DNA of 64,000 bases, taken from Nemertoderma westbladi. Its lineage: Eukaryota > Animalia > Xenacoelomorpha. A model generated the notes under the pieces. It was given only the letters and a program-made list of their open reading frames with translations, had not been told where the DNA came from and did not search any database. The stretch is taken from NCBI GenBank assembly GCA_032718475.1, contig JAUCBJ010007494.1, positions 1 to 64,000 on the forward strand. The letters run 5' to 3'. Position numbers and translations under genes: made by a program. The stretch's first letter is position 1; every line of letters starts with the position of its first letter. This document shows positions 7,951 to 60,320 of this stretch, one piece after another.

Positions 7951-8237
7951 CCTCTATACTAACAGCAGAACTGTTGAACAGACCAATACCCGTTAATATC
8001 CTTCTGTCAACCTAATGAGCTCTTGCCTAACCAATAAGACACAAAGAATGCTCTACTGTTAAGTAAAGGGGATCAGGAGCGTGATATTACTAAATTGTAA
8101 AGGTGGCTAAATACAAAACCGCTACTTACCGTTGGATGGCGCTAATCTGCCGTCCGCTAATATATTTTACTAATTTTACACAACTCCTGCAAAATCGCTT
8201 GTTCCTTTCTCTACCGATCGCTCGATAGAGAGCTAAC

Positions 8238-20024: not shown

Positions 20025-20650
20025 TTAACCCTATTGACATATGGTCTGCGTGACTTTTCCTAAAATTTAATGGGCTATCCAACAGCCAAAACGCCATTTA
20101 CATGACTATGCTAGTTTTCGTGCTGTGGTCCCGTGTTCTGGCACCCATCATCAGTTTTTTTCGTGCAAAAATTTTCAAAAATTTTTTGGCTCACTAACTA
20201 ACATCAATTTATTTCCAGTATATAACGGTTTTTAGGAAGCTGATCACGAATCAAATATGACACTGAAATATATCGTATATTGAAGATTAGGGCATTTTAG
20301 TATTTGTGTCAATATGCGCACCAAAAATACAATTGAAGCACACATTTGATAATCAAAAATCATAACCAAATCAACCTGATTGTTAGATATTATGGGTTAA
20401 CTGGTACGCTGATAACGAATATGACACCCAAAAATATCGTATTATCCATCAAAATTCTATATTTGCAAAATTTAAGAGTTTATAATTTTGTGCTAGGCCT
20501 ACTTGTACTTTTTGTTCTGGGGCACAAGAATGGCACCAAAAATGGATCTGCATTACCGGAAATATTTATAACTATCGTCATCGTGATCAGCGACCTCAAA
20601 AACCCTTATACCATCAAAATTGTAATTTCTCGGAGTCGGATTGATTTAAA
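20025..20650. mobile_element. MITE-like fragment; related inverted fragment at ~56050-56120
   Basis: TTAACCCTATT start. TAGTTTTCGTGCTGTGGTCCC...TGGCACCCAT...TTTTTCGTGC is mirrored at ~56050-56120. Confidence 0.4.
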
Positions 20651-20652
20651 GT

Positions 20653-20957
20653 CGGATTGGGCTGAGGCTGGTGGAAGGGTGGAGCTGCAGCCACAGTGGG
20701 TGGTATAGGGAGGAGCAATTGGATTGGGCTGAGTCTGGTGGGAGGGTGGAGCTGGAGCCACAGCGGGTGGCATAGGGAGGAGCAGTTGGATTGGGCTGAG
20801 GCTTGTGGAAGGGTGGAGCTGGAGCGACAGCGGGAGGTATAGGGAGGAGCAGTTGGATTGGGCTGAGGCTGGTGGATAGGTGGAGCTGGAGCCACAGCGG
20901 GTGGTATAGGGAGGAGCAGTTGGATTGGGCTGAGGCTAGTGGAATGGTGGAGCAGCT
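20653..20957. repeat. Left remnant of the 67-bp G-rich satellite (about 4.5 units)
   Basis: Same unit as 38555-47095; fused directly to gag sequence of element A. Confidence 0.95.
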
Positions 20958-22403
20958 CATCAAGCCCAAATGTGTGTTGTGCGACGGGCCCCATTGTTTA
21001 AGTGTGTGTGAGGAGTTCCTAAAGAAATCCCTAAAAGATAGACGCAAAGTCATGTGGGATAAGCGGTTGTGTTATAATTGTCTCAGACGAGGACACCAAC
21101 GGCGAACCTGTTACTCCGACGCAAGGTGTGCAAAGTGCGGCGCGAAACATCATATTTTGTTGCACACCGAATTCGAAAGAAACAGCCCGAGTCAGGTAAG
21201 TGAATCTGAACTACATGTCCAATTCAGTGATGTGAACGACACTGACCAAAGTTCTGAGATGGAAGAATTCTATACGGATGAATTCTCCGACAAAAACGAA
21301 TCCTGTTACTTAATAAATACCGCAGTGTACCGAGCACTTACGTATGAGAAGGAAACCGACAGTGAGCTCCCCCTAACTACTCCTGACAGACAACCATCTT
21401 GGAAAGCACCAACTTCCAACGTAGGAATCCGAGAATTTCCCGTAGTGCAGTTGAGAGTCCACGGAGTAAATAACAGCTTATAGTGAACGCCCTCCTTGAC
21501 TCCGGCAGCACTGGAACATTCATCGACAAAGAACTAGCCGAAGACATCTTTGCTGGACAACCCAAGTTCCGAACTAAGTTAAACATGTCAGGAATTATGC
21601 ATGTTTGGAAATCTACAGTAATTGCAGATTACTATGTAGGTGCGTTGTCCACCCCCCAGGATGAACTAGGAGAACACAGTATAAGGTCAGTAAAAATGGT
21701 GGCGATAAAGAACTTCGCTACCAGCCAAGTGGAACCTTATAACTGGGACGAGGATGATTGCACCCAGCAGCTTAAGATACCAAGATTCAACACAGACTAC
21801 CCTGGAGTGCAAATACTCATCGGCCAAAATGCACATGAGGCGCTTGAGACATTGGAGAAACGGCCTGTTCAACCGCAACCACTACAAGTCTATGCGGGAA
21901 GAACTAGAGTAGGTTGGTACTTTACTGGCCCTTCCCGTAGAACTCTCATGGAAAGACTGCCCAAAGAACGGGTCTACCAAGTAAGTAAATGGGAAGTGGA
22001 GGGCAGTGAGGTGGACGACCCAACTGAGGGAAGACCATACTCCTCAGATAATGACGACATCAACTCCAATGTAGATCAATGGAGACATTGCCTTGGGATG
22101 ATTAATCCAGCCAACATCGCTTCCAGAGGAACAACTCCTCAAGAACTGATAGATACTCCAGGTTGGTTAAGTGGACCCGACTTCCTAAGTAAAGAAGAAG
22201 ATGAATGGCCTCCTCATCTTACCACGGCGGAGATTAGACAGGCCAAGGGAGCGGGGAAAGTAACACAACAACTCAATCGCCCAGCTGGTCGTTTATGTTT
22301 ACTGGAAAGAGACCGAAAACTGTCCGGAAACTATGGAAGGCAATATACTCTTCCTACGACCACTTCCCTAATCCGACAAATATCTAGGGACTCCATAACA
22401 TAA
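20958..22403 (+). pseudogene. Element A gag knuckles, protease and RNase H-end remnant (frameshift near 21480)
   Basis: CVLCDGPH, CYNCLRRGH, CAKCGAKHH, LLDSGST, QWRHCLGMINPANIASRG; split across ORFs 20803-21483 and 21483-22403. Confidence 0.88.
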
Positions 22404-24988
22404 CAACATACGGAGTGGGTGTGTGACTATATTATTTTGCATATTTTACTATTTTTATAATTATGTATGTATTATTATGTAATTTTATTATAATCGTTTT
22501 CTTTAATTTTATTTAGTCGAATATTATTTTAGTGATTATTTAGTGCAATGTATATATTCGTGTTTATTACTTAATTATGTATATTATATATTTAGTGCGA
22601 CGGCGAGAAATAATTATTTTCTCTTTCCTTACTGTCCGTATCATATTATAAATACGTGACTACAGTAAGATGAAATCTCCGTACTTATTAAAGTACAATA
22701 AAGCTCCTACTATATTCGAGTATTATTGGTAAGCAGAGTATTAGGAATGCAAAGTTCAGATCCTCGTGTCTCGGCTAAACCAAGCTCTGGGTAGACCTTG
22801 AAAACGACTTGCCTCTTCTCACTGACATTGCTTCGTGCGATATTGCTCTCATGCCGTATATTAAATAATACATATAGTAGCGTGATGTCCCTTTAACAGT
22901 AGCGTAAAACGCAAAATAAATGTGTTAAACCCTTTGACCATCTGCAATTCTAGTCTATTAAGATATCGTGGCACCCACCGATATACTTGAAAGACAAGCT
23001 TTAGAATCAGTGGTTAACGTCCCCAGACATGTCTGGAATAAACCGGTGCCCATCCTAAATAATAACAATTAATATTTATTAAAATCTGTAAAATTCAGAT
23101 CCATAAAAATTCTAGTCGATTAAGATATCGTAGCACTTACCGATACTCTTAAAAAGACAATTCATAGAATTAAGGATCTTAGTCCCCAGACATGTTCTGG
23201 AATAAAATTGTGTCTATTTAATATTAAATAATAAAATTACGGGAATAAATTTAAATTCATCTCTTTAATGAATTTGATAAATTGTTATTTTATACAATTT
23301 ATAATATTCCCAAAATTCCATTAATTAATAGATCATGGGAGCGGAGATTCACCCTATTAAGTGTATTAGTGTGCGAGAATCTCCAATATATAGTCAATAG
23401 CCGATAAAATTCATAAAATCATATATAAAGATGATATTGACCATTAAAGACTTACTATTAAATAGCATCCCAGATCTGTATGCATGGGAATTACCCTAAT
23501 TCTACCGCTAGCTTTCCATAATGTTACCATAGCAACAACCACGCTAGAATTAGAAGTGAGTTAACAGAACAATAAAAAGCTTGCTCATTGAATAGCATAC
23601 GGAATAAATAGCACACCGCTAGTATCCAAGGATACATAATAACAACGTGACATTCTGGAAAGCACTTGACTACCGGACAAATGACCTGAATGTGTGATAG
23701 AATGTGTACAATTTGTGATAGTTACGTGGAATTTGTGCGTTTGTAGGTGAATGTTACTACTAAGGTGTGTTTTCAGTAGCGAGTCGCAATTGTGAAAGTA
23801 ACCCTAACTCTGCAGTAAATCTAAGCCCTTGGGACGGACAGTGGAGTGACTCGTGCTGGTTGTCGTTGTCGTCGTGTAGCTACACGTTGGCAAAAAACAC
23901 AGCAACGACGATACATCGGTGCTGAGAATCTCGCACTGTCCGGGGGCAGAGAGGGGTAGGCAGCGACGCCTGCTAGCCTAAATATAAACTCATTATAATA
24001 TTAATAAACTCATATAGCAGATATGACTGAGTTGATAGAAGATGATCTTGGTATCAGGGAGCGATATACTCTATTTTTACAAGCGTTTGTTGATAGCTTG
24101 ATACGCAGCGACGCTGGTCCAACTACTATGGAGGACGATGGTCGTTATATCAAACCGCCAATGTTCCCAAGAGCAGCTCACGCGTGAGTTGGACTATAGA
24201 AAATTCACCGCTCGCTATACGCATTGTAATGGTACGTATATGGACTTCTTAACTACTGGTCATCCTATCGACCTACACGATACGGACGATATAGACACCG
24301 AAAGGGAAATGGTTTTATTTAAATATCATACCCAGTGGAAGCGGAACGATAAACTGAGACTCAAACACGAAAATTCTATTCGAAACCGACTCGAAAGTGA
24401 AGATGTTGAAGAGCCGGATAAACGCAGCGACTTCAACAAATATCTGGAATTCTTGAGAGAAACATATCTCAATATTACCAGTCAACAGAATCTAGAAACT
24501 CGATATCCTCAAGGTATACATCATGACCGCATGGTAGAACTCAAACGGCTCTATTCCACTATGATGTATCTTACCGCCGATCGACCGCTACCTGTTATAC
24601 CGGATAGCTTCGAACAGATGGAGGAATATTGTAAAACTGGAGAACGATCACCCGCGTTTCCCCTACAAGATGTGCGTCTTTGGTATTATTGCGATGAATG
24701 CCCTAGACCCAACCAACAAACGGAAAGACATAAACATCCGCGGAGACGTTGCACTAAACACGGTTTTACTCGCAATACTTGCAGGAGTTTCGAGCGAAAT
24801 TTGTTTGACGTATCACCTACGCTCATTCGACTCAGACGATCCTTAAATAAACCAATGATCAGAGTTCAGGAATACTCGATCAGACCTCCTCATTCCCTAA
24901 CAAGACCTCAGACTCTTGATCCTATTAGTATGACGGATCCGCCCGAGCTGTACTCACTGTTCAAAGATCTAGTGTTACCTGAACAATT

Positions 24989-26217
24989 TGTAAAAGCTTT
25001 TACTGAATTGTCCGGTTATTTTTCCTTATTTTTCCCGTAAAGTACTCTGTAGTTGGTTTACCAGGCATAAAAAGGCCGTGTCCTTGCTGTACTGGTGTTT
25101 TAGCGGACATAAGAGCTATTTCTTCTGTATTTGTACTTTAGAGGACATAATCCGTAATTCCGTGACGTAAAAGCACGATACTCTTGAAAACAGTGTCGCT
25201 ACCATGACGACGGCTAGCAGCTGATATTGCCACGTTGACGTTTCTTTGTTTCTCTGTTCTCTCGTTGTTCAGGTTGACCAATCAGAGCGTTTGTTATCTC
25301 TGTGTTGGAGGTATATACAGAAACTCAGTAGTTCAGTGTTATTGTTTTTGTCCAGAGCCTAAGAACCGGCTTTGGCACCTCCGTGTTTTAGTTTTTAGTC
25401 TTACACTAGTAGGTTTAATTATAAAGGGCATATATCCTTTAACGCACCTACCTGACTCATGGAATCACTGCATACTGATGACTGATGTCTGCATACTGCA
25501 GTACTGCATACACTGCATACTGTGTAACATTGTGCATACCTTTATATTGTTATACTGCTATTTACCGTCAGTTCTTCATAATATGGTTGATGAATAATTA
25601 TATTTGGAATAACGATAAACAACCCCGAAACCCAATGTTCTTGATATACCGAAGGTAAGAGAGAAGGGTTACAGATAAACGATTGTGACTTATGTTAAAG
25701 TGGTTTGAAGTGAATCTAATGTTATTTGATAGACCCTACATGAGCCAGTCTGTGTTCCTTATATATGTGACTAAAATCAGTGAAGATCGGCAGATTAGTG
25801 TGCAGTATTGTGCAGCATTGTGTATGAGTGAGTCTGTTAAAGAAGCATTCCTAAAGAATGCGCCATATATGTGAATTATAATTAAGCCATATCGTTGTGA
25901 GTGGTTTAAGTCATAACTCTGTTTATATAGATAAAGCGCCACGTCCTAAAGGAACTGTTAATATTCCCGAAGGTGAATAATATTGTCAGAGATTATATAA
26001 TACTGTCAGTCGAATAATACATTAGGCTTACATAGCAATAAAATTAAACCGTCGAACCCAATCTCCCGGGAATTTCCAGCGGGTGAATGGTCGCGCACGG
26101 ATTGGTTTCGACTAGTGTAGTGAATCAAATACTTGTCATAGACTAAAAACTGATTTAATATCTAGAAGACATCTTAATTTGGTGGGTTAAACTGCCAAAG
26201 GTCTGAAAGCGCGAACA
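24989..26217 (+). repeat. 5' LTR of element B
   Basis: TGTAAAAGCTTTT...GAAAGCGCGAACA; direct repeat of 35509-36737. Confidence 0.97.
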
Positions 26218-26479
26218 TTAAAGGATATAGCTTCTTTATTGCAGTAAGCAATAAAGTCGAAAGTACCGGTCGACCGGTAACCAGTAGGCCTGACTGCCTG
26301 ATCATCCGGACCGGTACCTACAGCAGTATTATTCGATTTTGATTGTTATATACCAGTAGGTCTTAATAATTAATCGGGGACGCCTGGTTTTTATTGAGAT
26401 TTTACTTATTTCTGTCAAGTTTTATTTATTTGTAAGCCAGTATTGAACAGAAGGCGTGTAAGCCTGATCAGATTGTACA

Positions 26480-27045
26480 GACAATTTGTAGGCTGAGCTG
26501 TTGTCTGATTGCTGTTAAGTCCGAACGAATTGCAGTGTGTGTAGAGCACTTGTCCGATTAAGTACGGTTAGGAAGTAGGGGCAGCAACGCTGTAAGGTAA
26601 TCCCCCAGATAAAGAATAAGTCGCACTACTGGGTTAGAGCGCATACTCCCTAATCATTTCGGAGTCTGCATGTCCTGTAGTTTATTTAGGCTTGAGAGTA
26701 GTCTGCCATCGTTTAGTCTGTACTTTGTTTGTGTAAGTCTGTACGGGTAGCGTATAATTTTATTTAGATAATTTGTAGGCTGGATAGTTGTCTGGCTGTT
26801 ATTAGGTCTGAACGGATTGCTGCGTGTGTAGATCATCTGTCCGATTAAGTACGATTAGGCAGTAGGGGCAGTGAACACTGTAAGGTAAACCCCCAACTAA
26901 AGAATAAGTCGCACTACTGGGTTAGAGCGCATACTCCCTAATCATTTCGGAGTCTGCATATACCGTAGTTTGTTTAGGCTTGATAGTAGTCTGTCAGTGT
27001 TCGGTCTGTATTTTGTTTGAGTAGTTTGTACGCGTAGCGTAATAT
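26480..27045 (+). repeat. ~288-bp tandem duplication in the leader of B (also in C at ~58420-58985)
   Basis: AAGAATAAGTCGCACTACTGGGTTAGAGCGCATACTCCCTAATCATTTCGGAGTCTGCAT at ~26612 and ~26900. Confidence 0.9.
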
Positions 27046-28361
27046 TTATTATTCAGAGTTTATGCGATTATTCGCAACATTCAAGTCCCCAAGTTTGTTC
27101 CTACAGTAATTGTGTTTGTTATACATACCGCTATAGTTAAATTAACCTCGGTACTACACGGGCTGCTCGGCGTAGGTAAAGACTGGTGATTTTGTGCATC
27201 GGTCACTCCAGCAGATGCCGTGGTTCTTTTAGCTGTTCAAGTATATTTAATTACTGATTAACTGTTGTGCAAGTACTCGTACCTAATTTAGGGTTTAGTG
27301 TACAGTGCTTTCCGAGAAGTAATTATTGTAGACATTATATTTGTGTTGTAAAGTGGTTGATAGGCACATTCGATTAGCTCTATTAACTTCTAGGTAGGAA
27401 CACTCCGTGATACATAACGTAGAACCTATAGCGATACGGCTATAGGTCGTCAGGCGGTGGCATTTTCCTATCTAGACAACGCAGTGTATTTACTACTACT
27501 TATTATTTCAAATACCGTAGTACCCTGTCCGCTGTAATAACCGGTTTTCTAACCCTTTGTTAGGCTGGTTTGTAGAATTCTTGTAAAATTACCCTAAAAA
27601 TTCGTATTTTGCGTTTTTGTAAAATTTTGTGTTTATTTAGAGATTGTAATCTCACCCGAATTGTACGTAATTTGTAGTATTAAGTAACTTAGGTAAATTA
27701 GAATTATTTGTTTTAGTGTCTCATAAGTAACACTTCACTGAAAGCGCACCGCTTTGTGTAGTGATTACCCCCAGAAATAATAACATTTATTTCAAACATT
27801 GACAAAACCCATTAAAACGGGTATATATATATTATAAATCAAATCTAACGATTTATAAATCGTAGGCCTACAATACAAACATTAGGTCTCAATATAAGTT
27901 GGACTACTGCTCAAATAACGGTAATAAAGTAAGTAAGTAACCAAGTAACCCTAAAGTTCAGAAATTCAGTTATTTTAAAATAATTGATATACCGGTATTT
28001 ACGATAGGCCTATTATCTTTATTCCTATAAATCTAGGCTGAAATTATACCGGTACGTGTAATTAATTCTATTTCAGAATTATATATCCTACAGACTGTAA
28101 GCTGTATACCGGTATTCCAGATAGGCCTATTATATATTTATATATATTTGTGCTAAAATTATACCGGTATTCGGTGATAAACCTAGTCTGTAATAATAGT
28201 TATATATACTATAAGCATACCGGTATTCTAATATATTATATATATCACGCTACACTGAGTAGCAGTACCGGTGATTAATTACTAGGCTAGCAGTTAATAC
28301 TGAGTTACTAGACTTGCTCAGACTGTAATACGGCAGTAGACATTCAACTGTACACATAAGC

Positions 28362-31300
28362 ATGTCTGACGCAAAGCAGAACCTGTCAGACAGTCTACTA
28401 GATACAACCGAGAGTGAAGTGACAGCAGAGAAACCGCATAAGAGGGATGCCATTGACATCTATCTGTCAGACTATCAGCGTTTTTTGGGAGATGAAGAGT
28501 TGAGGAGAAGGCTAGAGGGACTTAGCCCTAATAGCGAAGGAGCCAAACTCGTGTTAGATGCGATTGATGTGGATAGGTTAGCGGCGAACCAAGCTAAATT
28601 CGATGAACAACTCCGCATCGCTAGAGAACAAGAAGAACAAGTAAAGAAAAAACGTATAGAAGACAGAAAGATAGCAGCAGTGGCAGAGGCGGAAAGAAAA
28701 GCGACCTTGGCAGAAGCAGCGGCAGAGGCAAAAGCGGCAGCAGCAGAAGCAGAGGCAAAGGCAACAAAAGCAGCAGCAGAAGCAAAGGCAGAGGCAAAAG
28801 CGGCAGCGGCAGAGGTAAAAGCGGCAGCGGTGGCGGAAGCAGAACGGAGAGCATCTGAAGAGGCAACCCAACTAGAGTTGGAAAATCTTCAAGAGAGGCA
28901 AGACAACTTCAATAAACAGTTAACAGCTAGTAATATGCAGATGATGAGTCGATCTACTCCCAAAAGACAGGGATATACATCATCGGAGGAAGGCGATACC
29001 ACCGATACTGAAGGCAAAGGAAATAGATCTCGTCTAAGCAGACGTAAAAGAACATTCCACCGTCAGAAATTGCCTGATTTGCCTCCAGCTGTTAGAAGGC
29101 AACTAAATAACACCAACTTAGGTAGTACAGAGCCCACAGACCAAATAATTAAAATAGAAAGACTCCCTACTATAGTGGATGAGCCTGAAATAAGTAGGCC
29201 TGTTCTTGAAATCACCCCTACGGTAATAGATACATCTGTGCTCCCTGAAGCTACCTATAAATTCCCTCTACATAGCACTAAGCTACCTGTGCCCCGTAGG
29301 ACTGCCCGAGAGACAGTTCAGGTCCTGGACCCCGAGCGAAATATTCCGAATTTGTCGCCCGTTGTCCCTTGTCTGCCCGCTACGACGTTGGCGGATCCCG
29401 TTTCGGCGGTTGATTGGGTAGACGAGAGACGGCGGGGGATGGATATTCTCCTCGGAGAGATGAAGGAGAATCGGATACGCTCCTCCCAACAGGTCCGAGA
29501 GTTGGAAGGGACTGTCCAACATTTAAAGGGAACAGTGAGGGAAAGCAAGTTGGAGTTGCAAGAAGTGCAGCAAAATATCGCGCTAGAGCGCGATAAATTA
29601 GTAAGTTTACAAAAGGGTATACCACCACCCTCTGTAACAATGTGTCAACCTGTTAGGTCTGAAGTATTGCATGCGCAAGGTGTGGAGCCTACACGCATAT
29701 ATACTGCTAGCGAAGTAGAAACTCCTATAGTGAACCCTATTAAGGGTAATTATAGACCTGTTGATAATGATATTCCCTATAGAACTGATCATAATCCGAG
29801 AAATTTATATACCGATAACTCGATATTAAATAGCACGATGGCCCAAGAAAGTTTTACGCGTCAAATGGCTAGAACCGAAGCCCGGCAAGCGGTAAAGGTT
29901 GGAGAGATTGTCAAGTTCAATGGAGATGAGATGAAATGGTTACCTTTTAATGAATATTACAAAGATAACATACAGAACTCTGTACTATCTAATGGAGAGA
30001 AACTTAGATTCCTCATCGAATGTTTGGAAGGACCTCCCAAGTCAATGGCGTTAAAATTTATTGGACATCCAGATGGATTAAGACAAGTTTGGGATACACT
30101 AAACATCAGGTATGGTAATAGGAATGACATAGCTGGGTATTTGTATGCAAAATTAATGGCGCCCCGAAAGTTTCTTAGCAGCGGGATTATAGAGTTTTCC
30201 GATGAGATTCAGGAGATCTGTAGACAATTAGATTGGCTAGGTAAGTCTCATGAATACCAGAATTCTATGGTTGTAAGAGCCTTAGCATCTGCTTTGCCCA
30301 AGGGTGGAGTAGGTACACGCTGGGATAAGAAGGTGTTATATATGATGGAACAACAACGACGAGACCCTACCATGACTGATCTCATGTCATTCTTAGATAG
30401 AGAAGTGAAATTACAGCTCCTAAGGCAGTCCAGAGAGAAGACATTGGAAAACAAGGTAAGTGAGAAACCCGTTTCTAGGAGAAGGGTAACACCAGTATGT
30501 TATACCGACGACGGTGAAAGCCAAACCTCTCAAGGAGAGGACAGCGGGAAAGACACTGACAGACCTTATTATGTCAATAAAATGCCTAAAGAACAGGTAA
30601 GTAAATCCAAGTCTCGACCCAATGACAGAAGGGAACCGATACAAAAAACCCCTCCTACGTCTCCTAAAGGAATTCAGGTGAGAAAGCCCGAGGAAAGAAC
30701 AAGTGTGCACCACATAGCACAGGTTAAAGTAAGTAACATCAAGCCGAAATGTGTGCTGTGCGACGGGCCCCACCGTTTAAATGCGTGTGATAAATTCCTG
30801 AGGAAATCACTCGAGGATAGACGTGAAGTCATGTGGGATAAGCGGTTGTGTTATAATTGCCTCAGACGAGGACACCAACGGCGAACCTGTAACTCCGACG
30901 CAAGGTGTGCAAAGTGCGGCGCAAAACATCATATCTTGTTGCACACGGAATTCGAACGAAACAGCCCGAGTCAGGTAAGTGAGTCCGAACTACATGTCCA
31001 ATTCAGTGATGTGAACGACACTGATCAATCTGAGATGGAAGGATTCTATACGGACGAGTTCTCCGACCAAAACGAATCCTGTTACCTAATAAACACCACC
31101 GCAGTGTATCGAGCACTCGTGTATGAGAAAGACACAGACGGCGACCTTACCTTAACTACTTCCGATCAACAACCATCTTGGAAAGCGCCAACTTCCAATA
31201 TAGGGATCCGAGAGTTTCCTGTGGTGCAGGTAAGGGTGCACGGACCTAAACGGAGTTATGTAGTGAACGCCCTCCTGGACTCCGGCAGCACAGGAACATT

Positions 31301-32492
31301 CATCGATAAAGAGCTAGCCGAAGATATATTTGCTGGACAGCCCAAGTTCCAAACTAAGCTCAACATGTCTGGCATTATGCAAGTTTGGAAATCTACAATA
31401 ACAGCTGCTGATTATTATGTAGGCGCGTTGTCCACCCCACAAGACGAACTAGGAGAACACAGCATAAGGTCAGTGAAAATGGTGGCTATAAAGAACTTCG
31501 CTACTACTCAAGCAGACCTTTATAATTGGGATGAGGATGAGAGCATACAACATCTTAACATACCTCGATTCCAGACTGATTATCCTGGAGTGCAAATACT
31601 CATCGGCCAAAACGCGCATGAGGCGCTGGAGACATTAGAGAAACGACCTGCTCAACCGCAGCCACTACAGACCTATGCGGTAAGAACTAGAGTAGGTTGG
31701 TACCTTACTGGACCTTCCCGTAGAACGCTCAGGGAAAGACTGCTTCAAGATCGTGTCTGCCAGGTGAGTGAATGGGAAGACGATACTAGTGAGGGAGACG
31801 ACCCAACTGAGGGAACACCACACTCCTCAGATAATGACAATCTTAGCTCCAATGTAGATCAATGGAGATATTGCCCCAAGAAGTTTAATCCAACGGACAT
31901 CGCTTCCAGAGGAGCAACTCCTCAAGAACTGACAGATACTATAGACCGGTTAGGTGAACCCGACTTCCTGAGTAAGGAGAATGAATGGCCTCCCCATCTT
32001 ACTCCGACTGAGATTAGACCAGCCAAGGGAGCGGAGAAAGTCGAACCTGAAACCCGGACGGGTGGATCGGAGTTATTTGAACCCGGGATAGATCTGTCGG
32101 TATTACATGTTGCCAGGGACGACGCCGTGGATCTGGGCCTCCCCTCCGCGAGTGGATCCTTCATGAAGATCAGAGAGAGCGATTGGAGCTCTGGAACATC
32201 AGACGTCTCGCAGGGACTCTCACCTCTCCTGCAGAGAGCGACGGACCACTATAGCTCCTGGAATCGGCTTTGTGACGCCGTCATATACTTTGAGCGATGT
32301 TTCTATCGTCACTATTCCAGGACGAAGAGGAAACCTGGAATTGTATTCAGGATGCAGCGACTCAATCACCCAGTCGGTCGTTTGTGTTTATCGGAAGGGA
32401 ATGGAGGACTCTCCGGAAACTGTGGAAGACAAGATTCTCTTCCCACGACCACCTCCCTAATCCTTCAAACATCTAGGGACTCCATAACGTAA
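28362..32492 (+). CDS. BEL/Pao gag-protease polyprotein lacking RT and integrase (1376 aa)
   Basis: Ala/Glu/Lys repeat, capsid-like KFNGDEMKW..EKLRFLIECL, three Cys/His knuckles, LLDSGSTGTFI protease, then a jump to the RNase H end (QWRYCPKKFNPTDIASRG) and SSWNRL linker; no YxDD or DDE motifs. Confidence 0.92.
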   Translation: MSDAKQNLSDSLLDTTESEVTAEKPHKRDAIDIYLSDYQRFLGDEELRRRLEGLSPNSEGAKLVLDAIDVDRLAANQAKFDEQLRIAREQEEQVKKKRIEDRKIAAVAEAERKATLAEAAAEAKAAAAEAEAKATKAAAEAKAEAKAAAAEVKAAAVAEAERRASEEATQLELENLQERQDNFNKQLTASNMQMMSRSTPKRQGYTSSEEGDTTDTEGKGNRSRLSRRKRTFHRQKLPDLPPAVRRQLNNTNLGSTEPTDQIIKIERLPTIVDEPEISRPVLEITPTVIDTSVLPEATYKFPLHSTKLPVPRRTARETVQVLDPERNIPNLSPVVPCLPATTLADPVSAVDWVDERRRGMDILLGEMKENRIRSSQQVRELEGTVQHLKGTVRESKLELQEVQQNIALERDKLVSLQKGIPPPSVTMCQPVRSEVLHAQGVEPTRIYTASEVETPIVNPIKGNYRPVDNDIPYRTDHNPRNLYTDNSILNSTMAQESFTRQMARTEARQAVKVGEIVKFNGDEMKWLPFNEYYKDNIQNSVLSNGEKLRFLIECLEGPPKSMALKFIGHPDGLRQVWDTLNIRYGNRNDIAGYLYAKLMAPRKFLSSGIIEFSDEIQEICRQLDWLGKSHEYQNSMVVRALASALPKGGVGTRWDKKVLYMMEQQRRDPTMTDLMSFLDREVKLQLLRQSREKTLENKVSEKPVSRRRVTPVCYTDDGESQTSQGEDSGKDTDRPYYVNKMPKEQVSKSKSRPNDRREPIQKTPPTSPKGIQVRKPEERTSVHHIAQVKVSNIKPKCVLCDGPHRLNACDKFLRKSLEDRREVMWDKRLCYNCLRRGHQRRTCNSDARCAKCGAKHHILLHTEFERNSPSQVSESELHVQFSDVNDTDQSEMEGFYTDEFSDQNESCYLINTTAVYRALVYEKDTDGDLTLTTSDQQPSWKAPTSNIGIREFPVVQVRVHGPKRSYVVNALLDSGSTGTFIDKELAEDIFAGQPKFQTKLNMSGIMQVWKSTITAADYYVGALSTPQDELGEHSIRSVKMVAIKNFATTQADLYNWDEDESIQHLNIPRFQTDYPGVQILIGQNAHEALETLEKRPAQPQPLQTYAVRTRVGWYLTGPSRRTLRERLLQDRVCQVSEWEDDTSEGDDPTEGTPHSSDNDNLSSNVDQWRYCPKKFNPTDIASRGATPQELTDTIDRLGEPDFLSKENEWPPHLTPTEIRPAKGAEKVEPETRTGGSELFEPGIDLSVLHVARDDAVDLGLPSASGSFMKIRESDWSSGTSDVSQGLSPLLQRATDHYSSWNRLCDAVIYFERCFYRHYSRTKRKPGIVFRMQRLNHPVGRLCLSEGNGGLSGNCGRQDSLPTTTSLILQTSRDSIT

Positions 32493-34147
32493 CAACATAT
32501 GGAGTGGGTGTGTGACTCTATTATTTTATATTATTTTATTATTTTTATATTTCTGTATGTATTACTATGTAATTTTATTATAATCGTTTTCTTTAATTTT
32601 ATTCAGTAGAATGTTATTTTAGCGATTATTTAGTAGATTAGTGCAATATATATTCGCGTTTATTACTTAATTACGTATATATTATATTTAATGCGACGGC
32701 AAGAAATAATTCTTTTCCTCTTTCCTTACTGTCCGTATCATATTATAAATACGTGACTACAGTAAGATGAAATGTCCGTACTTATTAAAGTACAATAAAG
32801 CCACTACTATATTTAAGTATTATTGGTAGGCAGAGTATTAGGAATGCAAAGTTCAGATCCTCGTGTCTCGGCTAAACCAAGCTCTGGGTAGACCTTGGAA
32901 ACGACTTGCCTCTTCACACTGACATTGCTTCGTGCGATATTGCTCTCATACCGTATATTAAATAATACATATAGTAGCGTGATGTCTCTTTAACAGTAGC
33001 GTGTAACGCAAAATAAATCTGTTAAACCCTTTGACCATCTGTAATTCTAGTCGATTAAGATATCGCGGCACCCACCGATATCCTTGAAAGACAAATTCTA
33101 GAATCAGTGGTTAACGTCCCCAGACAAGTTCTGGAATAAATCGGTGCCCATCTCAAATATTAATTAGTTAATATTTACAAATCAAATAAGTCAAAATCTG
33201 TAAAATCCAGATCCTTCAACAATTCTAGTCAATTAAGATATCGTAGCATTTACCGATATTCTTAAAGAGACAATTTCTTAGAATTAAGGATCTTGTGCCC
33301 CTAGACATGTTCTAGAATCAAAATATGTCCATTTAATTATCAAATAATAAAATTTCAGGGAATAAATTTAAATTCATGCCTTTTAATGAATTTAATAAAT
33401 TGCCATTTTACGCAATTTATAAAGTTCCCAAAATTCCATTAATTAATAGATCAAGGGAGCGGAGATTTATCTTATCATGCGTATGAGAGTGTGAAAGTCT
33501 CCCAAACATAGTTAATAGCCGATAAAATTCTTAAAGTCATGTATAAACAGGACATTGACTATTAAAGAATTCCTATTAAATAACATCCCAGATCTGTATG
33601 CATTGGAATTACTCTAATTCTACCGCTAGCTTTGCATAATGTCACCATAGCAACAACCACGCTAGAATTAGAATTGAGTTAAAAGAACAATAGAAAGCTT
33701 GTCCCATTGAATAGCATAGGGAATAAATAGCGCACTACTAGTATCCAAGGATACATAATAATACAGTGACATTCTGGAAGGCATTGACTAACGGACAAAT
33801 GGCTCGAATGTGTGTAATTTGTGACAAGTTGTGTGTGTGGTATTTGTGAGTTTATAGGTGAATGTTACTGCTAAGGTGTGTTTACAGTAGCCAGTAGCAA
33901 TCGTAAAGTAACCTAACTCTCCAAGGAATACCTGAAGTACATCTAAGTCTTTGGGACGGACAGTCGAGTGACTTGTGCCGGTTGTCGTTGTCGTTGTGCG
34001 GCTACGTCGTTGGCGAAAGTACAGCGGCGACGACACATCGGCGCTGAGGATCTCGTACTGTCCGGGGGTTAATTGGAGTAGGCAGCGACGCTCGCTAGCC
34101 TGAATATAAACTCCTTATAATGTGGATAAACTCATATATAGCAGACA

Positions 34148-35508
34148 TGACGGAGTTGATGGAAGATGTTCTTGGTATCGGGGAGCGATATACTCTACTT
34201 TTGCAAGCGTTTGTTGATAGCTTAATACGCGGCGACGTTAGTCCAACTGCTGCGGAGGACGATGGTCGTTATATCGAACCGCCAATGTCCCAAGAGCAGC
34301 TCACGCGTGAGTTGGACTATAGAAAATTCGCTGCTCGATATACGCGGCGTAATGGTATGTATATGGGCTTCTTAACTACTGGTCATCCTATCGATTTACA
34401 CAATACGGACTATGTCGACTATATATCCTGCCCAGCGGAGTCGGAACCATAAACGGAAATTCGAATGCGAAAATTCTATTCGAAATCGACTCGAAAGAAA
34501 AGACACTTAAGAAACAAATGGACGCGGTAACTCCAAAGTATATTTGGAATTCTTGATAGAAGCATTGTAACAACAAATAAATGTCACCCGCGTTTACCCT
34601 ACCAGACGTGCGTCTTTGGTATTATTACGATAAAAGCCCTAGACCCAAATAATAAACGGAAAGACATAAACATCCATGTAAACCGAAACTTGTTGACGTA
34701 TCACCTATGCTCACTCGGCTCGAACGATCCTGGAGTAAACCTACGATCAGAGTCCCGGAATACTCGGTCAAACCTCCTCATTCCTTAGTTGGACCTCAGA
34801 CTTGCGATCCTGGTGGTGTCGCGGATCCTCGCGGACGGTATTCACTGTTCAAGATCTAGTGCTACCCTAACAATTAATCGGTAACACTCCGACAGTGATT
34901 TCTAGCTAGCCGCCCATCTTACCTAGCTGGATTATGACGCAGACACCTAATATCATTATCCAATCGTATGGTCGTCCCGTTTAACGCGATACAACCCTTC
35001 ATCAAGGTGAAGGAGAGCATTGTACGAAACGAGTTAAACGCTATTCTATAAAGATCAAAAAGGAAACCTGCGTTTGTTCAGATAAACGTAAGTTATAACA
35101 GTAAGTCCAATCGATAAACGAATTGGCCTTATCTCAATTCGATTGGGAAATCCAGAATCTCTAAGAAGTTATCGAACTTGGACGATCCTATTCTCTGCGA
35201 GAGTTTTTGGATGAACGTATCCAGCTACGAGCGGAGGAAAATCAGCTCGAGGAGAAGCATATCGAAACGGCAGATACCCCGACCACAATCCTACACCTTC
35301 TGATGCAATCATATTGCACCCTTCACCCAGGAGTTATGGCCCTCCTAGTAAAGTGGCTCCCCCCAAAGAGAAAAAGACTCTTGCTAGCCTCAAAAAACTG
35401 CGTAAACGCCGTCTGCGTAAGAAAGACTAACTGTTTAGAGTATCTTTATGTTTTAGAAACTGTGATTTTTATATTTTATAGACTGAAAATCCCATTTTCT
35501 GGGAGCGG
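34148..35508 (+). pseudogene. Element B ORF2, degenerate (deletions and stops)
   Basis: MTELMEDVLGIGERYTL...QEQLTRELDYRKF and ...LHPGVMALLVKWL...ASKNCVNAV are homologous to ORF2 of A. Confidence 0.7.
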
Positions 35509-36737
35509 TGTAAAAGCTTTTACTGAATTGTCCGGTTATTTTTCCTTATTTTTCCCGTAAAGTACTCTGTAGTTGGTTTACCAGGCATAAAAAGGCCGTG
35601 TCCTTGCTGTACTGGTGTTTTAGCGGACATAAGAGCTATTTCTTCTGTATTTGTACTTTAGAGGACATAATCCGTAATTCCGTGACGTAAAAGCACGATA
35701 CTCTTGAAAACAGTGTCGCTACCATGACGACGGCTAGCAGCTGATATTGCCACGTCGACGTTTCTTTGTTTCTCTGTTCTCTCGTTGTTCAGGTTGACCA
35801 ATCAGAGCGTTTGTTATCTCTGTGTTGGAGGTATATACAGAAACTCAGTAGTTCAGTGTTATTGTTTTTGTCCAGAGCCTAAGAACCGGCTTTGGCACCT
35901 CCGTGTTTTAGTTTTTAGTCTTACACTAGTAGGTTTAATTATAAAGGGCATATATCCTTTAACGCACCTACCTGACTCATGGAATCACTGCATACTGATG
36001 ACTGATGTCTGCATACTGCAGTACTGCATACACTGCATACTGTGTAACATTGTGCATACCTTTATATTGTTATACTGCTATTTACCGTCAGTTCTTCATA
36101 ATATGGTTGATGAATAATTATATTTGGAATAACGATAAACAACCCCGAAACCCAATGTTCTTGATATACCGAAGGTAAGAGAGAAGGGTTACAGATAAAC
36201 GATTGTGACTTATGTTAAAGTGGTTTGAAGTGAATCTAATGTTATTTGATAGACCCTACATGAGCCAGTCTGTGTTCCTTATATATGTGACTAAAATCAG
36301 TGAAGATCGGCAGATTAGTGTGCAGTATTGTGCAGCATTGTGTATGAGTGAGTCTGTTAAAGAAGCATTCCTAAAGAATGCGCCATATATGTGAATTATA
36401 ATTAAGCCATATCGTTGTGAGTGGTTTAAGTCATAACTCTGTTTATATAGATAAAGCGCCACGTCCTAAAGGAACTGTTAATATTCCCGAAGGTGAATAA
36501 TATTGTCAGAGATTATATAATACTGTCAGTCGAATAATACATTAGGCTTACATAGCAATAAAATTAAACCGTCGAACCCAATCTCCCGGGAATTTCCAGC
36601 GGGTGAATGGTCGCGCACGGATTGGTTTCGACTAGTGTAGTGAATCAAATACTTGTCATAGACTAAAAACTGATTTAATATCTAGAAGACATCTTAATTT
36701 GGTGGGTTAAACTGCCAAAGGTCTGAAAGCGCGAACA
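35509..36737 (+). repeat. 3' LTR of element B
   Basis: Matches the 5' LTR; I spotted one substitution (CACGTTGACG vs CACGTCGACG). Confidence 0.97.
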
Positions 36738-37366
36738 CAATTAGTCGGTGGCACCCCGGTTGTGGGCTTCCTAGATATTAGCCCATCCTACCTAGCCGGA
36801 TTGGGACGCGGACATTTAATATCGCCGTTTAACTCTTACCATCGTCCCGGTTTAACACCGATACAACCTGTCACCAAAGTGGAGGAGAGCGTTGTACCAA
36901 ACGCGTTAGACGCTATTCTACAAAAGATCAGAAAAGGAACCTATGCTTGTTCAGATAAACGTAAATTGCACTAGCAAGTCCAAGCGGTAAACAAAGTAAC
37001 TTTATCTCAGTTCGATCGGGAAATCCAGAATCTCTAAGAAGTTATCGAACTTGGACGACCCTATTCTCCGCAAGAATTTTTGGACGGACACATCCAACGA
37101 CAAGCGGAGGAAAATCAGCTTGAGGAGAAGCATATCAAAATGGACGAGACACCGACCGTAACCCTAAACCTTCTGATGCAATTGTATTGCACCCTTCACC
37201 CAGGAGTTATAGCCCTCCTAGTAAAGTGGCTCGCCCCAAAGAGAAAAGGACTCTTGCTAGCCTCAAAAAACTGCGTAAACGCCGTCCGCGCAAGAAAGAC
37301 TAACTGTTTACAGTATTTTTATATTATAGAAACTGTATAGAATTAAATCCCATTGTCTGGGAGCGG

Positions 37367-38554
37367 TGTAAAAGCTTTTGCGGGATGTAACTGGCCCTTT
37401 TTCTCCGCAATCCAGTTTTCCCTCAATGCGCTCAAATACTCTAAAACTGCCTGGCTTGAGTGACGCAGTCTGCTGGCTGATTGGCTGATTTGCTGTGCGT
37501 GTATGGCCTCTTTGTTCTGTTCGATCAACCAATCAGAACAATGATCGACCAATCAGAGCGATTTCGCCTTGTGTTGGCTGTGGGCTGCAAAGGCTAGGGT
37601 GGTTTGGCATTTAGACATTCGTGGAACCTGTGGAATATGGAGCTCCGCCAATGAGAGCTATTTCTCTTTGTGTTGAAAGATACCTACAACAGCCCACAGG
37701 GATCAGTGTGTTGGTTTTCCAGATGCCTGAACATCGGCTATGGAATAATTATGTGTTTCAGACTTTAGCCAAACATTAGAACGGCTTTGATTACCGGAAC
37801 GTATAACTGTTATCAAACCAATGCATGACTCGCATACCTGGCATATCAGACTCAGTATATGCCTTTCACCACATTATTTTACTGCTATTTACTGTCGGTT
37901 GTTAATTGTATCTGTTGATGGAATATTGTTATATTTGGATAATATCGATAAATAATCATAAAACCCCATCTTCTTGATATACTGAAGGTAAGAGACCGGT
38001 TACATATAGCAATTGCGACTTATATGATATTGGTTTTGGAGTGAATCTAATGCTATTTCATAGGCACTACATGGGTCAATTGCTGTTCTCTTTATATGTG
38101 ACTAAAATTAGTGAAGGTCGGCATATCAGTGTGCAGTATTATGCGGTACCGGTAGTGTGCATGATTGTGACAGATAACTAAGCATCTCCTAAAGAATGCG
38201 CCTTATACGTAAATCAATAGCCATCCCGTTGTGTTTAGTGTAAGTCATAGGTCTATTTATATATTTAGAGCGCCACGTCCAAAAGGAACTGTTAATATCT
38301 CCCGAAAGTGAATAATATTTGTCAGAGATTATATATTAACGATCAATCGAATAATACAGTAGGCCTACACCACAATAAGGTCAGAGCCCCCGAATCCAGT
38401 CTCCCGGGTATATCCAACGGGTGAATGGTCGCGCATAGGCTGGCTTCGGCTAATGTAGTGTATCAAATACTCGTCATAGGCTAAAGTCGATTTATAATCT
38501 AGAAGACACCTAAATTAGGCGGGTTAAACTGCCTAAGGTCTAAAAGCGCGAACA
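37367..38554 (+). repeat. 3' LTR of element A (diverged subfamily)
   Basis: GGGAGCGG|TGTAAAAGCTTTT...AAAGCGCGAACA; 3' two-thirds alignable to the B LTR. Confidence 0.92.
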
Positions 38555-48995: not shown

Positions 48996-49084
48996 AACTT
49001 TATTTCCGAATTACGACTCTTGCCGAACGTGATAGTTGCCGAAACGCGATGTAACCACTGCGCTGCGACGTACAGTACCTGTAT

Positions 49085-56898: not shown

Positions 56899-58122
56899 TG
56901 TAAAAGCTTTTGTGGGATAACTGATTCGTTTGCCTTGTTGGCCAGTTCCCCCCCAGTCGCTAAGAATACTCTCAAAGTGATCTATAGTTAAAATAGTGTA
57001 AGCTACCAGCTTATTGGCTGATTTGTGGGATGCAGGTATCTGGGCTCTGTTAATCGTCCAACTAGCCTAAGAGGGTTGCGTCATAGCCTGTTTTTGTATC
57101 TTCCAATAGAAATTTGAGTTATCCTGGATTTTAACCAATCCTGAGCTACTGAACTGAAAATTCCTATCTCACTGCTCATCCTCTGTGTTGAACGGGAGCT
57201 TTGGGGAATAAGTGTAGTTGGTATTCTCGTAGTCACGAGTTTTTTAAAGCCACGAAAGAACGGCTTATAGTGTTTTGTGCTTTTCTGCTTTTTAGTTTAA
57301 CACTAGCAGGTTTAATTATAAGGACATATATCCTTTAACTGGCAAAACAAACTGCATATCATATCAAACTGCGGACTGCATACCTAACGCACGGCATACT
57401 ACTGACTGCTGAAACATTGCAAACTCATAACAATCAGTGTTCAGTTGTTGTTTTATACTGCTATTTACTGTCGGTTATTCATTATATTTGTGGATGAATT
57501 ATTATATTTGGAATAACGAGAAACAACCCCGAAACCCAATATTCTTGATATACCGAAGGTAAGAGAGAAAGGTTACAGATAAACGATTGTGACTTATGTT
57601 AAAGTGGTTTGAAGTGAATTTAATGTTATTTGATAGACCCTACATGAGTCAGCCTGTGTTCCTTTTATATGTGACTAAAATCAGTGAAGATCGGCAGATT
57701 AGTGTGCAGTATTGTGCAGCATTGTGTATGCGTGAGTCTGTTAAAGAAGCATTTCCTAAAGAATGCGCCATATATGTTAATTATAACTAAACCATATCGT
57801 TGTGAGTAGTTTAAGTCATAACTCTGTTTATATAGATAGAGCGCCACGTCCTAAAGGAACTGTTAATATTCCCGAAGGTAAATAATATTGTCAGAGATTA
57901 TATAATACTGTCAGTCGAATAATACATTAGGCTTACATAGCAATAAAATTAAACCGTCGAACCCAATCTCCCGGGAATATCCAGCGGGTGAATGGTCGCG
58001 CACGGATTGGTTTCGACTAGTGTAGTGAATCAAATATTTGTCGTAGGCAGAAAAGCGATTTAATATCTAGAAGACATCATAATTTGGTGGGTTAAACTGC
58101 CAAAGGTCTGAAAGCGCGAACA
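56899..58122 (+). repeat. 5' LTR of element C (1224 bp)
   Basis: TGTAAAAGCTTTT...GAAAGCGCGAACA followed by TTAAAGGATATAG as in B. Confidence 0.93.
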
Positions 58123-60320
58123 TTAAAGGATATAGCTTCTTTATTGCAGTAAGCAATAAAGTTGAAAGTACCGGTCAACCGGTAAACCTGAACGGTACAT
58201 TGTAGGTCTGTAGGCCTAACTGTCATAACCGGTACCGGTACTGCTGTATAAGTACATTTAGTATTATTCGATTTTGATTGTTGTATACCTGTAGGTCTTA
58301 GTACTTAATCAGGGAACGGCCGCCCTGGTTTTTTATTGAGATTTTACTTATTTCTGTCAAGTTTTATTTGTTTGTAGGCCAGTATTGAACAGAAGACGTG
58401 TAAGCCTGATCAGATTGTGCAGACAATTTGTAGGCTGAGCTGTTGTCTGATTGCTGTTAGGTCTGAACGGATTGCAGTGTGTGTAGAGCAACTGTCCGGT
58501 TAAGTACGGTTAGGAAGTAGGGGCAGCGAATGCGGTAAGGTAAACCCCCAGCTAAAGAATAAGTCGTACTACTGGGTTAGAACGCATACTACCTAATCAT
58601 TCCGGAGTCTGCATGTCCTGTAGTTTATTTAGGCTTGAGAGTAGTCTACCATCGTTTAGTCTGTACTTTGTTTGTGTAAGTCTGTACGGGTAGCGTATAA
58701 TTTTATTTAGATAATTTGTAGGCTGGATAATTGTCTGGCTGTTATCGGGTCTGAACGGATTGTAGTGTGTGTAGAGCACCTGTCCGATTGAGTACGGTTA
58801 GGAAGTAGGGGCAGCGAACGCTGTAAGGTAAACCCCCAGCTAAAGAATAAGTCGTACTACTGGGTTAGAACGCATACTGCCTAATCATTTCGGAGTCTGC
58901 ATATACCGTAGTTTGTTTAGGCTTGATAGTAGTCTGTCGGTATTTGGTCTGCATTTTGTTTGAGTAGTTTGTACGCGTAGCGTAATATTTATTATTCAGA
59001 GTTTATGCGATTATTCGCAACCTTCACATTCCCCAACTTTGTTCCTACAGTAATTGTGTTTGTTATACATACCGCTATAGTTAAATTAACCCCGGTACTA
59101 CACGGGCTGCTCGGCGTAGGTAAAGACTGGTGATTTTGTGCATCGGTCACTCCAGCAGATGCCGTGGTTCTTTTAGCTGTTCAAGTATATTTAACTACTG
59201 ATTATCTGTTATACAAGTACTCGTACCTAATTTAGGGTTTAGTGTACAGTAGGCCTACTTTCCGAAGTAATTAGTGTAGGCATTATATTTGTGTTGTAAA
59301 GTGGTTGATAGGCACCTTCGATTAGCTCTATTAACTTCTAGGTAGGAACACTCCGTGATACATAACGTAGAACCTATAGCGATACGGCCATAGGTCGTCA
59401 GGCGGTGGTATTTTCCTATCTGGACAACGCAGTGTATTTACTACTACTTATTATTTTCAAATACTGTAGTACCCTGTCTGTTGTAATAACCAGATTTCTA
59501 ACCCTTTGTTAGGCTGGTTTGTAGACTTCTTGTAAAATTACCCTAAAAATTCGTATTTTGTGTTTTTTGTAAATTTTTGCATTTATTTAGAGATTGTAAT
59601 CTCACCCGAATTGTACGTAATTTGTAGTATTAAGTAACTTAGGTAAATTAGTATTATTTGTTTTAGTGTCCTGTACGTAACACTTCACTGAAAGCGTACC
59701 GCTTTGTGTAGTGATTACCCCAGAAATAATAACATTTGTTTCAAAGATTGACAAAACCCATTAAAACGGGTATATATATATTATAAATCAAATCTAACGA
59801 TTTATAAATAGTAGGCCTACCATATAACAATTAGGTCTCAATATCAGTTGGATTACTGCTCAAATAACGGTAATAAAGTAAGTAAAGTAACAAAGTAACC
59901 CTAAAGTAACAGAAATTCAATTATTTGAAATAATTGATATACCGGTATTTACGATAGGCCTATTATCTTTATTTCTATAAATCTAGGCTGAAATTATACC
60001 GGTACTTGTAATTAATTCTATTTCAGAATTATATATCCTACAAACTGTAAGCTGTATACCGGTATTCCGATAGGCCTATTATATATTTATATATATTTGT
60101 GCTAAAATTATACCGGTATTCTGTGATAAACCTAGTCTGTAATAATACTTATATAGTTATATATACTATAAGTATACCGGTATTCTAATATATTATATAT
60201 ATATAACGCTACACTGAGTAGCAGTACCGGTAATTAATTACTAGGCTAGCAGTTAATACTGAGTTACTAGACTTACTCAGACTGTAATACAGCAGTAGAC
60301 ATTCAACGGTATACATAGTC

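What the first reader, a model, noticed from the sequence alone, without database searches (positions are those of the whole stretch)
24989..36737. Recently mobile gag-protease-only LTR family that lacks RT and integrase
Seen: A and B share the same jump from just after the protease to the RNase H end (..SSDND..SNVDQWR..) and the same C-terminus (SRDSIT*), although their LTRs and coding sequences are clearly diverged. B has near-identical LTRs, a perfect TSD and an open 1376-aa ORF. Inference: a long-lived non-autonomous lineage that keeps its own capsid and protease and borrows RT/IN in trans, analogous to plant TR-GAG elements but BEL/Pao-derived.
Basis: partly seen in the sequence, partly recalled or inferred. 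Interest (0 to 1): 0.7.

Follow-up and report, generated by a model that had tools for sequence, protein, structure and literature searches.

The report
Self-priming BEL/Pao retrotransposon lacking its polymerase
This is a recently inserted animal jumping gene that keeps its capsid and protease genes but has lost reverse transcriptase and integrase, likely borrowing them from a relative, and whose start-of-copying site pairs with a matching stretch of its own terminal repeat, so it likely primes itself instead of using the host tRNA that its family is described as using.

Summary
Observation confirmed. Element B (24989-36737) has 1229-nt LTRs differing at one base, a CAATT target duplication and an open 1376-aa gag-protease ORF. 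A and B jump from the protease end to the RNase H end; no RT or integrase core remains. Contigs of four runs cross the junction, so it is family-wide. dN/dS is 0.11-0.14 in capsid, zinc knuckles and protease. C runs off the window, so its deletion status is unknown; no helper was identified. TR-GAG is the wrong analogue; wheat gag-protease Fatima subfamilies are closer.

New: the 12 nt after the 5' LTR are not tRNA-like but are the exact complement of a site about 430-440 nt into the LTR (B, C). A's aligned site differs at 4 of 12 positions, and the reads hold a second post-LTR type that is its exact complement: 4 of 4 changes compensated. Two neighbouring LTR helices also covary. The pairing is well supported; its use as a Tf1-like self-primer is inferred (transcript start and cleavage untested). 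The ICTV profile gives BEL/Pao a tRNA primer, and my searches found no self-priming BEL/Pao.

The parts
24989..26217 (+). B 5' LTR, 1229 nt, TG..CA
   Evidence: one mismatch to the 3' LTR
24984..24988 (+). 5-bp target site duplication CAATT (second copy 36738-36742)
25431..25442 (+). LTR site complementary to the post-LTR 12-mer (helix 1, putative self-primer); copy in 3' LTR at 35951
26218..26229 (+). post-LTR 12-mer in the place of a primer binding site; does not start with TGG
25391..25401 (+). helix 2 left arm, pairs with 26140-26150
   Evidence: kept in A, B, C; 3 double changes in 10 bp between A and B
25412..25420 (+). helix 3 left arm, pairs with 26042-26050 beside AATAAA at 26037
25653..25659 (+). 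splice-donor-like AGGTAAG kept in A, B, C LTRs (function inferred)
26230..28361 (+). 2.1-kb non-coding leader with a 288-bp tandem duplication
   Evidence: 5.4% different from C
28362..32492 (+). open 1376-aa gag-protease ORF with RNase H and integrase end remnants
29916..30302 (+). BEL gag domain DUF1759 (PF03564)
   Evidence: E 1.2e-12
30750..30950 (+). three zinc knuckles
   Evidence: sequence; dN/dS 0.14
31194..31718 (+). aspartic protease, LLDSGS motif intact
   Evidence: dN/dS 0.12
31838..31845 (+). deletion junction 1 (RT and most of RNase H missing)
31845..32012 (+). RNase H end remnant
   Evidence: E 8e-8; dN/dS 0.64, not distinct from neutral
32358..32396 (+). last residues of integrase C-terminus (RPxxKLCLLE-like) after deletion 2
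   Evidence: motif in last 80 aa of 27 of 52 relatives
34149..35430 (+). broken second ORF region of B (internal deletions, stops)
35501..35508 (+). polypurine tract GGGAGCGG, same in A
35509..36737 (+). B 3' LTR
20953..24988 (+). element A, left part: 5'-truncated gag end, protease, same junction, 3' region with a second ORF from 24023 (frameshift near 24134), interrupted by B
36738..38554 (+). element A, right part; 3' LTR 37367-38554
37802..37813 (+). A's version of the helix 1 site, 4 of 12 bases different from B
   Evidence: complement seen in post-LTR loose ends
56899..64000 (+). element C: 5' LTR 56899-58122, same post-LTR 12-mer and site (57327), gag frame open to the window edge with about 290 extra N-terminal residues

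Best explanation
A, B and likely C are copies of a multi-copy BEL/Pao-derived LTR family whose deleted form keeps gag and protease, lacks RT, RNase H and integrase, likely gets those enzymes from a co-packaged autonomous relative, and likely primes minus-strand synthesis with a piece of its own RNA. Shown: the anatomy, the shared junction, purifying selection on gag-PR, a very recent insertion (B), and a 12-bp complementarity between an LTR site and the bases directly after the 5' LTR that is kept through 4 of 4 compensatory changes. Inferred: the family makes and matures its own particles; helper Pol is supplied in mixed particles; the LTR site lies at or near the 5' end of the genomic RNA, anneals to the post-LTR 12-mer, is cut 3' of the duplex (by helper RNase H if as in Tf1) and is extended across U5 and R. 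Because helices 2 and 3 start 40 and 19 nt upstream of the site, the primer may be a longer 5' fragment than Tf1's 11-mer.
For: LTRs 1228 of 1229 identical, perfect TSD. No RT/IN core in six frames. dN/dS B/A 0.21 (95% 0.15-0.28, 474 codons), protease 0.12; B/C 0.18 (0.14-0.24, 904 codons), capsid 0.11, against 0.50-0.92 for a non-coding control read in six frames. Junction crossed in 4 of 4 runs laid: A's letter at 31842 in 46, 13, 3 and 2 contigs, best 31-70 letters from a contig end. Nine X1 contigs leave the element at 31838, at the junction, as an undeleted relative would. Helix 1: offset 0 from the LTR end, 14 of 20000 shuffles reach it in B and in C, pair probability 0.88-1.0 in B and 0.65-1.0 in C in folds of the 810-829-nt region; site at LTR position 443, 429, 436 in B, C, A although the upstream 370 nt are at or just above shuffled identity; a loose-end row of 9 X3 contigs starts after CA with the exact complement of 37802-37813; 26222 A>C in 44 X1 and 27 X3 contigs; one X5 contig joins an A-type LTR end to that type. 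Chance that 4 changes on each side fall on partner positions and stay complementary: about 2.5e-5. Helices 2 and 3 also change in step.
Against: No transcript start, cleavage or primer was observed; only contigs were available. The helper was not identified. The phase of A-type LTR with A-type post-LTR sequence rests on one X5 contig that matches 10 of 12, from a run under another organism label; the X1 row (11 contigs) has one extra letter, a 1-contig X1 row matches 11 of 12, a 3-contig X3 row 7 of 12; 19 of 56 loose-end rows were shown. Helices of 11-14 bp with G-U pairs are common in such DNA (8 rows in D, B's top row is helix 2), so the case rests on position and covariation. Helix 1 crosses helices 2 and 3, and no conserved TATA box sits 25-30 nt upstream. 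B/C divergence rises from 3-10% to 10-16% along gag, so recombination may have imported selected gag-PR. C's deletion status is unknown. No host tRNA set could be scanned.
Confidence: 0.66

Rival explanations
1. Non-autonomous family as above, but helix 1 is structural (packaging, dimerisation, strand transfer or poly(A) control together with helices 2 and 3) and priming uses another RNA.
For: Helices 2 and 3 covary too and start upstream of the site; helix 3 abuts AATAAA; helix 1 crosses them; ICTV describes tRNA priming for the family.
Against: Helix 1 ends exactly at the LTR boundary where minus-strand synthesis starts; no TGG follows the LTR; two different post-LTR types each match their own LTR, which one host primer would not explain.
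Confidence: 0.17
2. The deleted form is a passenger: its gag-PR looks conserved because it is repeatedly replaced by recombination with an autonomous relative, and is not needed for its own mobility.
For: Mosaic B/C divergence; dS B/A is 0.63 in protease against 0.27-0.42 beyond the junction; A has a frameshift.
Against: B's 1376 codons and C's 1237 codons are stop-free; A and B differ on both sides of one shared junction and keep the frame open through two deletions to the same stop; junction-bearing contigs are abundant and diverse.
Confidence: 0.14
3. The deletion or the nesting is local decay or an assembly artefact.
For: The window is repeat-rich and the best run may be its source.
Against: Perfect TSD; same junction in A and B at 16% DNA difference; contigs of 4 runs in 4 studies cross it.
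Confidence: 0.03

Closest known systems
BEL/Pao LTR retrotransposons (Belpaoviridae; PMC8742986, whole text read)
   Same: DUF1759 gag, three zinc knuckles, protease, RNase H and integrase end motifs in PR-RH-IN order, one ORF, PPT, TG..CA LTRs, 5-bp TSD.
   Different: No RT or integrase core; no 18-nt tRNA-Arg/Gly PBS; 11.7 kb against 4.2-10 kb; nearest proteins only 25-38% identical.
Wheat Fatima subfamilies RLC_famc1.4 and 1.5 (PMC6097303, passages read)
   Same: Abundant gag-plus-protease subfamilies proposed to take RT and INT from a sister subfamily.
   Different: Plant element of another superfamily; there the RT-bearing sister is identified, here it is not.
Tf1/Sushi, Tj1, Tcn1 and plant TAR/Houba self-priming elements (PMC7175516, PMC4600332, PMC6317226, passages read)
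   Same: PBS position occupied by a short sequence complementary to an upstream LTR site instead of a tRNA.
   Different: Those are gypsy or copia lineages; Tf1 uses the first 11 bases of its RNA and its own RNase H. Here 12 bp, about 780 nt apart, flanked by two more covarying helices, and any cleavage must come in trans.
TR-GAG (PMC4350172, abstract and outline read)
   Same: Non-autonomous, LTRs, keeps gag, apparently mobile.
   Different: TR-GAG is <4 kb, gag only, plant copia/gypsy-related; this is 11.7 kb with a selected protease and a second ORF.

Membership tests
BEL/Pao (Belpaoviridae) | BEL-type gag and protease, Pol domains in PR-RT-RH-IN order | tested here: met
   PF03564 E 1.2e-12; 8 of 8 hits carry PF05380 and PF03564; remnants lie in PR, RH end, IN end order. 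Met as descent.
BEL/Pao (Belpaoviridae) | encodes RT, RNase H and integrase | tested here: not met
   so a derivative, not an autonomous member
BEL/Pao (Belpaoviridae) | 18-nt PBS complementary to the 3' end of tRNA-Arg or tRNA-Gly | tested here: not met
   post-LTR sequence starts TTAAAGG, no TGG for the CCA end; host tRNA genes not scanned (no genome held)
BEL/Pao (Belpaoviridae) | LTRs, polypurine tract, short TSD | tested here: met
   size 11.7 kb exceeds the quoted range
BEL/Pao (Belpaoviridae) | clade placement by RT phylogeny | not testable with these tools
   no RT in the element
TR-GAG | shorter than 4 kb | tested here: not met
   11749 nt
TR-GAG | single ORF coding for gag only | tested here: not met
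   protease present and under selection; second ORF
Tf1-type self-priming elements | sequence after the 5' LTR complementary to an LTR site rather than to tRNA | tested here: met
Tf1-type self-priming elements | the site is the first bases of the transcript | not testable with these tools
   no raw RNA reads; position at the edge of the variable part of the LTR fits, helices 2 and 3 upstream complicate it
Tf1-type self-priming elements | RNase H cleavage releases the primer | not testable with these tools
   biochemical; the element has no RNase H of its own
Tf1-type self-priming elements | Ty3/gypsy chromovirus ancestry (Tf1/Sushi group) | tested here: not met
   BEL/Pao domains: works like Tf1, is not a member
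Fatima-like gag-protease subfamilies | gag and protease ORF open, RT and IN absent, amplified | tested here: met
Fatima-like gag-protease subfamilies | RT-bearing sister subfamily in the same genome | tested here: inconclusive
   9 contigs leave at the junction; none followed further; D is too distant

The most novel reading that the evidence does not exclude
A BEL/Pao lineage has independently abandoned tRNA priming for a self-primer held in a three-helix, pseudoknot-like fold spanning the whole R-U5 region, and its dominant form is a division-of-labour partner: it supplies capsid and protease while a rare relative supplies Pol, including the nuclease that must cut the primer in trans. Subfamilies have diverged their primer/PBS pairs so that A-type and B-type no longer cross-pair.
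Probability: 0.5. Interest if true: 0.82.

Novelty: new variant of a known kind. Interest (0 to 1): 0.72.

Why it matters
Self-priming is reported for some gypsy and copia lineages; the ICTV profile describes BEL/Pao as tRNA-primed and its replication as poorly understood. A natural set of compensatory changes in a third superfamily would show the mechanism arose again and gives a sequence rule to screen other BEL/Pao elements that lack a tRNA site. It also extends gag-protease 'half-autonomous' families, known to me from plants, to animal BEL/Pao, where RT-based surveys would miss them, and offers a system for asking why such elements keep a protease and how Pol is shared.

Tried and rejected
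No whole genome held, so no copy count or helper search. No RNA holder listed. Summed contig depth is no copy number and was not used as one; lower depth over 32049-32403 is only a hint. Shorter-protein search for PR-junction fragments: 0 of 6870 candidates. Viral-contig pattern scan gave 1 locus (L001), not examined further. Metagenome scan gave 1 locus, L002, an unrelated integrase-envelope element. Earlier findings: none in 3 look-ups. Rfam: 2 sub-threshold hits; ARAGORN: 0 tRNA in the window, so no element-encoded tRNA-like primer detected. Second ORF: 0 Pfam families, 0 of 178 candidates, no Atlas hit, model pLDDT 36, dN/dS not better in its own frame in two of three segments: coding function unproven. 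D as helper rejected: 23% gag-PR identity, different LTR start, no clear boundary helix because its LTR end is undefined. Five other proteins with short PR-to-RH spacing (60-290 aa): the two looked up are single-member NCBI gene models, so no evidence of similar families. The cross-pairing lines for helix 2 were one base out of register and are not used. Literature: searches found no self-priming or gag-protease-only BEL/Pao (the two hits read mention self-priming only for Tf1-like and TAR elements); PMC3118150 and PMC554778 have no PBS passage by word search. I recall a self-encoded tRNA-like primer proposed for the nematode BEL element Cer7; one search did not find it, so it is recalled only. 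The original Tf1 papers were not held; Repbase, GyDB and subscription journals were not searchable, and no supplements were read.
Full report
1. Observation. Self-comparison of the window shows a 1229-nt direct repeat at 24989-26217 and 35509-36737 with one mismatch, TG..CA ends and CAATT on both flanks. Between them lie a 2.1-kb leader, a 1376-aa ORF (28362-32492) and a 3.0-kb 3' region ending in a GGGAGCGG tract. This element B, 11749 nt, sits inside a relative A, whose left part (about 20953-24988) and right part (36738-38554) rejoin across the TSD; A's 5' half is lost and a 67-bp satellite flanks it. A third relative C starts at 56899 and runs off the window before the protease. BEL/Pao elements are described as metazoan only (PMC3601003, passage); the host was not identified.

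2. Protein anatomy. The ORF carries DUF1759 (E 1.2e-12), three zinc knuckles and a protease with an intact DSG motif. All 8 hits among 7982 candidates are BEL/Pao polyproteins; the best 150 of 12421 hits in the representative library are 25-38% identical. The protease end is followed after 43 residues by the motif that closes BEL RNase H; 56 of 66 such pairs among 160 stored proteins are 483-576 apart. A profile of 52 RT-bearing relatives finds no RT or integrase core in A or B in 1885 six-frame pieces, but finds D's RT at E 7e-112. Both tails end in a copy of the last integrase motif, seen in 27 of 52 relatives, so there are two deletions; A lacks B's 32042-32359.

3. Family-wide and selected. 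Six of 11 listed runs, in 4 studies, hold the stretch; the best may be the window's source. On 30700-32800, 17545, 4104, 188 and 151 contigs were laid from four runs, all 30 bins covered. A's letter at 31842, inside the junction, occurs in 46, 13, 3 and 2 contigs, and an X4 piece spans 31642-31874 with 39 differences. Two single X4 contigs show the A-type shorter tail. Nine X1 contigs leave the element at 31838, as an undeleted relative would; 24 of 477 loose-end rows were shown. dN/dS (Nei-Gojobori, gapped codons skipped) is 0.21 for B/A and 0.18 for B/C, 0.11-0.14 in capsid, B/A knuckles and protease, but 0.38-0.64 in the spacer and remnants; a non-coding control gives 0.50-0.92, so only the gag-PR values show selection. 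B/C difference climbs from 3-10% to 10-16% along gag, a sign of recombination and a caveat on where selection acted.

4. The primer site. The ICTV profile gives an 18-nt PBS for tRNA-Arg or -Gly. B and C instead continue TTAAAGGATATA straight after the LTR, and its exact complement lies at LTR position 443 (B) and 429 (C); 14 of 20000 shuffles reach this in each. Folding the 810-829-nt stretch pairs the two with probability 0.65-1.0 per base. A's 3' LTR has, at the aligned position 436, a site differing at 4 of 12 bases, which pairs badly with B's post-LTR sequence. Laying contigs on 26165-26300 revealed a second post-LTR type: a row of 9 X3 contigs begins after CA with the exact complement of A's site; 26222 A>C stands in 44 X1 and 27 X3 contigs; one X5 contig joins an A-type LTR end to this type (10 of 12). 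Other rows are imperfect (one extra letter in 11 X1 contigs; 11 of 12; 7 of 12), and 19 of 56 rows were shown. Four matched complementary changes have a chance of about 2.5e-5. Of 79, 87 and 69 helices in the B, C and A LTRs, four distinct pairings are shared; two flank the site: helix 2 (25391/26150; 3 double changes in 10 bp between A and B, a shifted 12-bp register in C) and helix 3 (25412/26050, beside AATAAA; one double change and one pair added on both sides in A). Their offsets from the site are kept (about -40 to -48 and -18 to -19) while the upstream 370 nt are near shuffled identity. Helix 1 crosses both.

5. Mechanism. Shown: sections 1-4. From established knowledge: LTR elements need RT, RNase H and integrase, so B's fresh insertion needed them in trans; Tf1 anneals the first 11 bases of its RNA to the PBS and RNase H cuts to free the primer (PMC7175516, passage). 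Inferred: the family builds and matures particles with its own Gag and protease, co-packages helper Pol, and primes from its own LTR site after a cut made in trans. The start of the transcript is unknown; if helices 2 and 3 form at the 5' end the primer is longer than 12 nt, otherwise they join the two ends of the RNA. Confidence: non-autonomous mobile family 0.9; selected pairing 0.95; priming role about 0.7; whole 0.66. Rivals: structural helix with another primer (0.17), passenger with imported gag-PR (0.14), artefact (0.03).

6. Comparison. By descent a BEL/Pao derivative, failing the RT/IN and tRNA-PBS features. Not a TR-GAG. In architecture like wheat Fatima 1.4/1.5. In priming it works like Tf1, Tj1, Tcn1 and TAR elements without belonging to them. 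Searches found no self-priming or gag-protease-only BEL/Pao; repeat databases and subscription papers were not searchable, and a recalled self-encoded primer of nematode Cer7 was not confirmed.

7. Verdict. New variant of a known kind; interest 0.72. Open: helper identity, copy number, transcript start, primer identity, and the second ORF, for which four searches and a fold gave nothing.

Noticed in passing
window 24023-24988 and 36738-36974 (A); 34149-35430 (B): Second ORF of roughly 400 codons in the 3' region, one frameshift in A before B inserted into it, broken by deletions in B; no homologue; an AG precedes its ATG, so it may be reached by splicing from the LTR donor (inferred).
   Followed up: yes
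window 60321-61236: C's gag has about 290 in-frame N-terminal residues that B lacks; only a sub-threshold Pfam hit.
   Followed up: partly
window 912-10092 (-): Element D: a distant BEL/Pao with open gag-PR-RT (1914 codons), cut off after RT; shares a TATACCGGTATTTA motif with B's leader at a similar distance from the gag start.
   Followed up: partly
window 20650-20953 and 38555-47097: 67-bp G-rich satellite (4.5 and 128 copies) flanks A on both sides: A inserted in or beside the array and lost its 5' half.
   Followed up: partly
window 14557-17493 (-): Open 978-codon LINE-type ORF (endonuclease plus RT), flanked by an 87-nt direct repeat at 14279 and 17452.
   Followed up: no
window 33015-33321 and 22945-23230: A 125-130-nt duplicated motif in the 3' non-coding region of both A and B.
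   Followed up: no
window 13518-14223, 19154-19320, 49079-49818, 51268-51775: Inverted-repeat element fragments and 32-bp and 68-bp tandem arrays.
   Followed up: no
L002 1578-5124: Unrelated integrase plus envelope-like ORF pair in a metagenome contig; chance hit.
   Followed up: no
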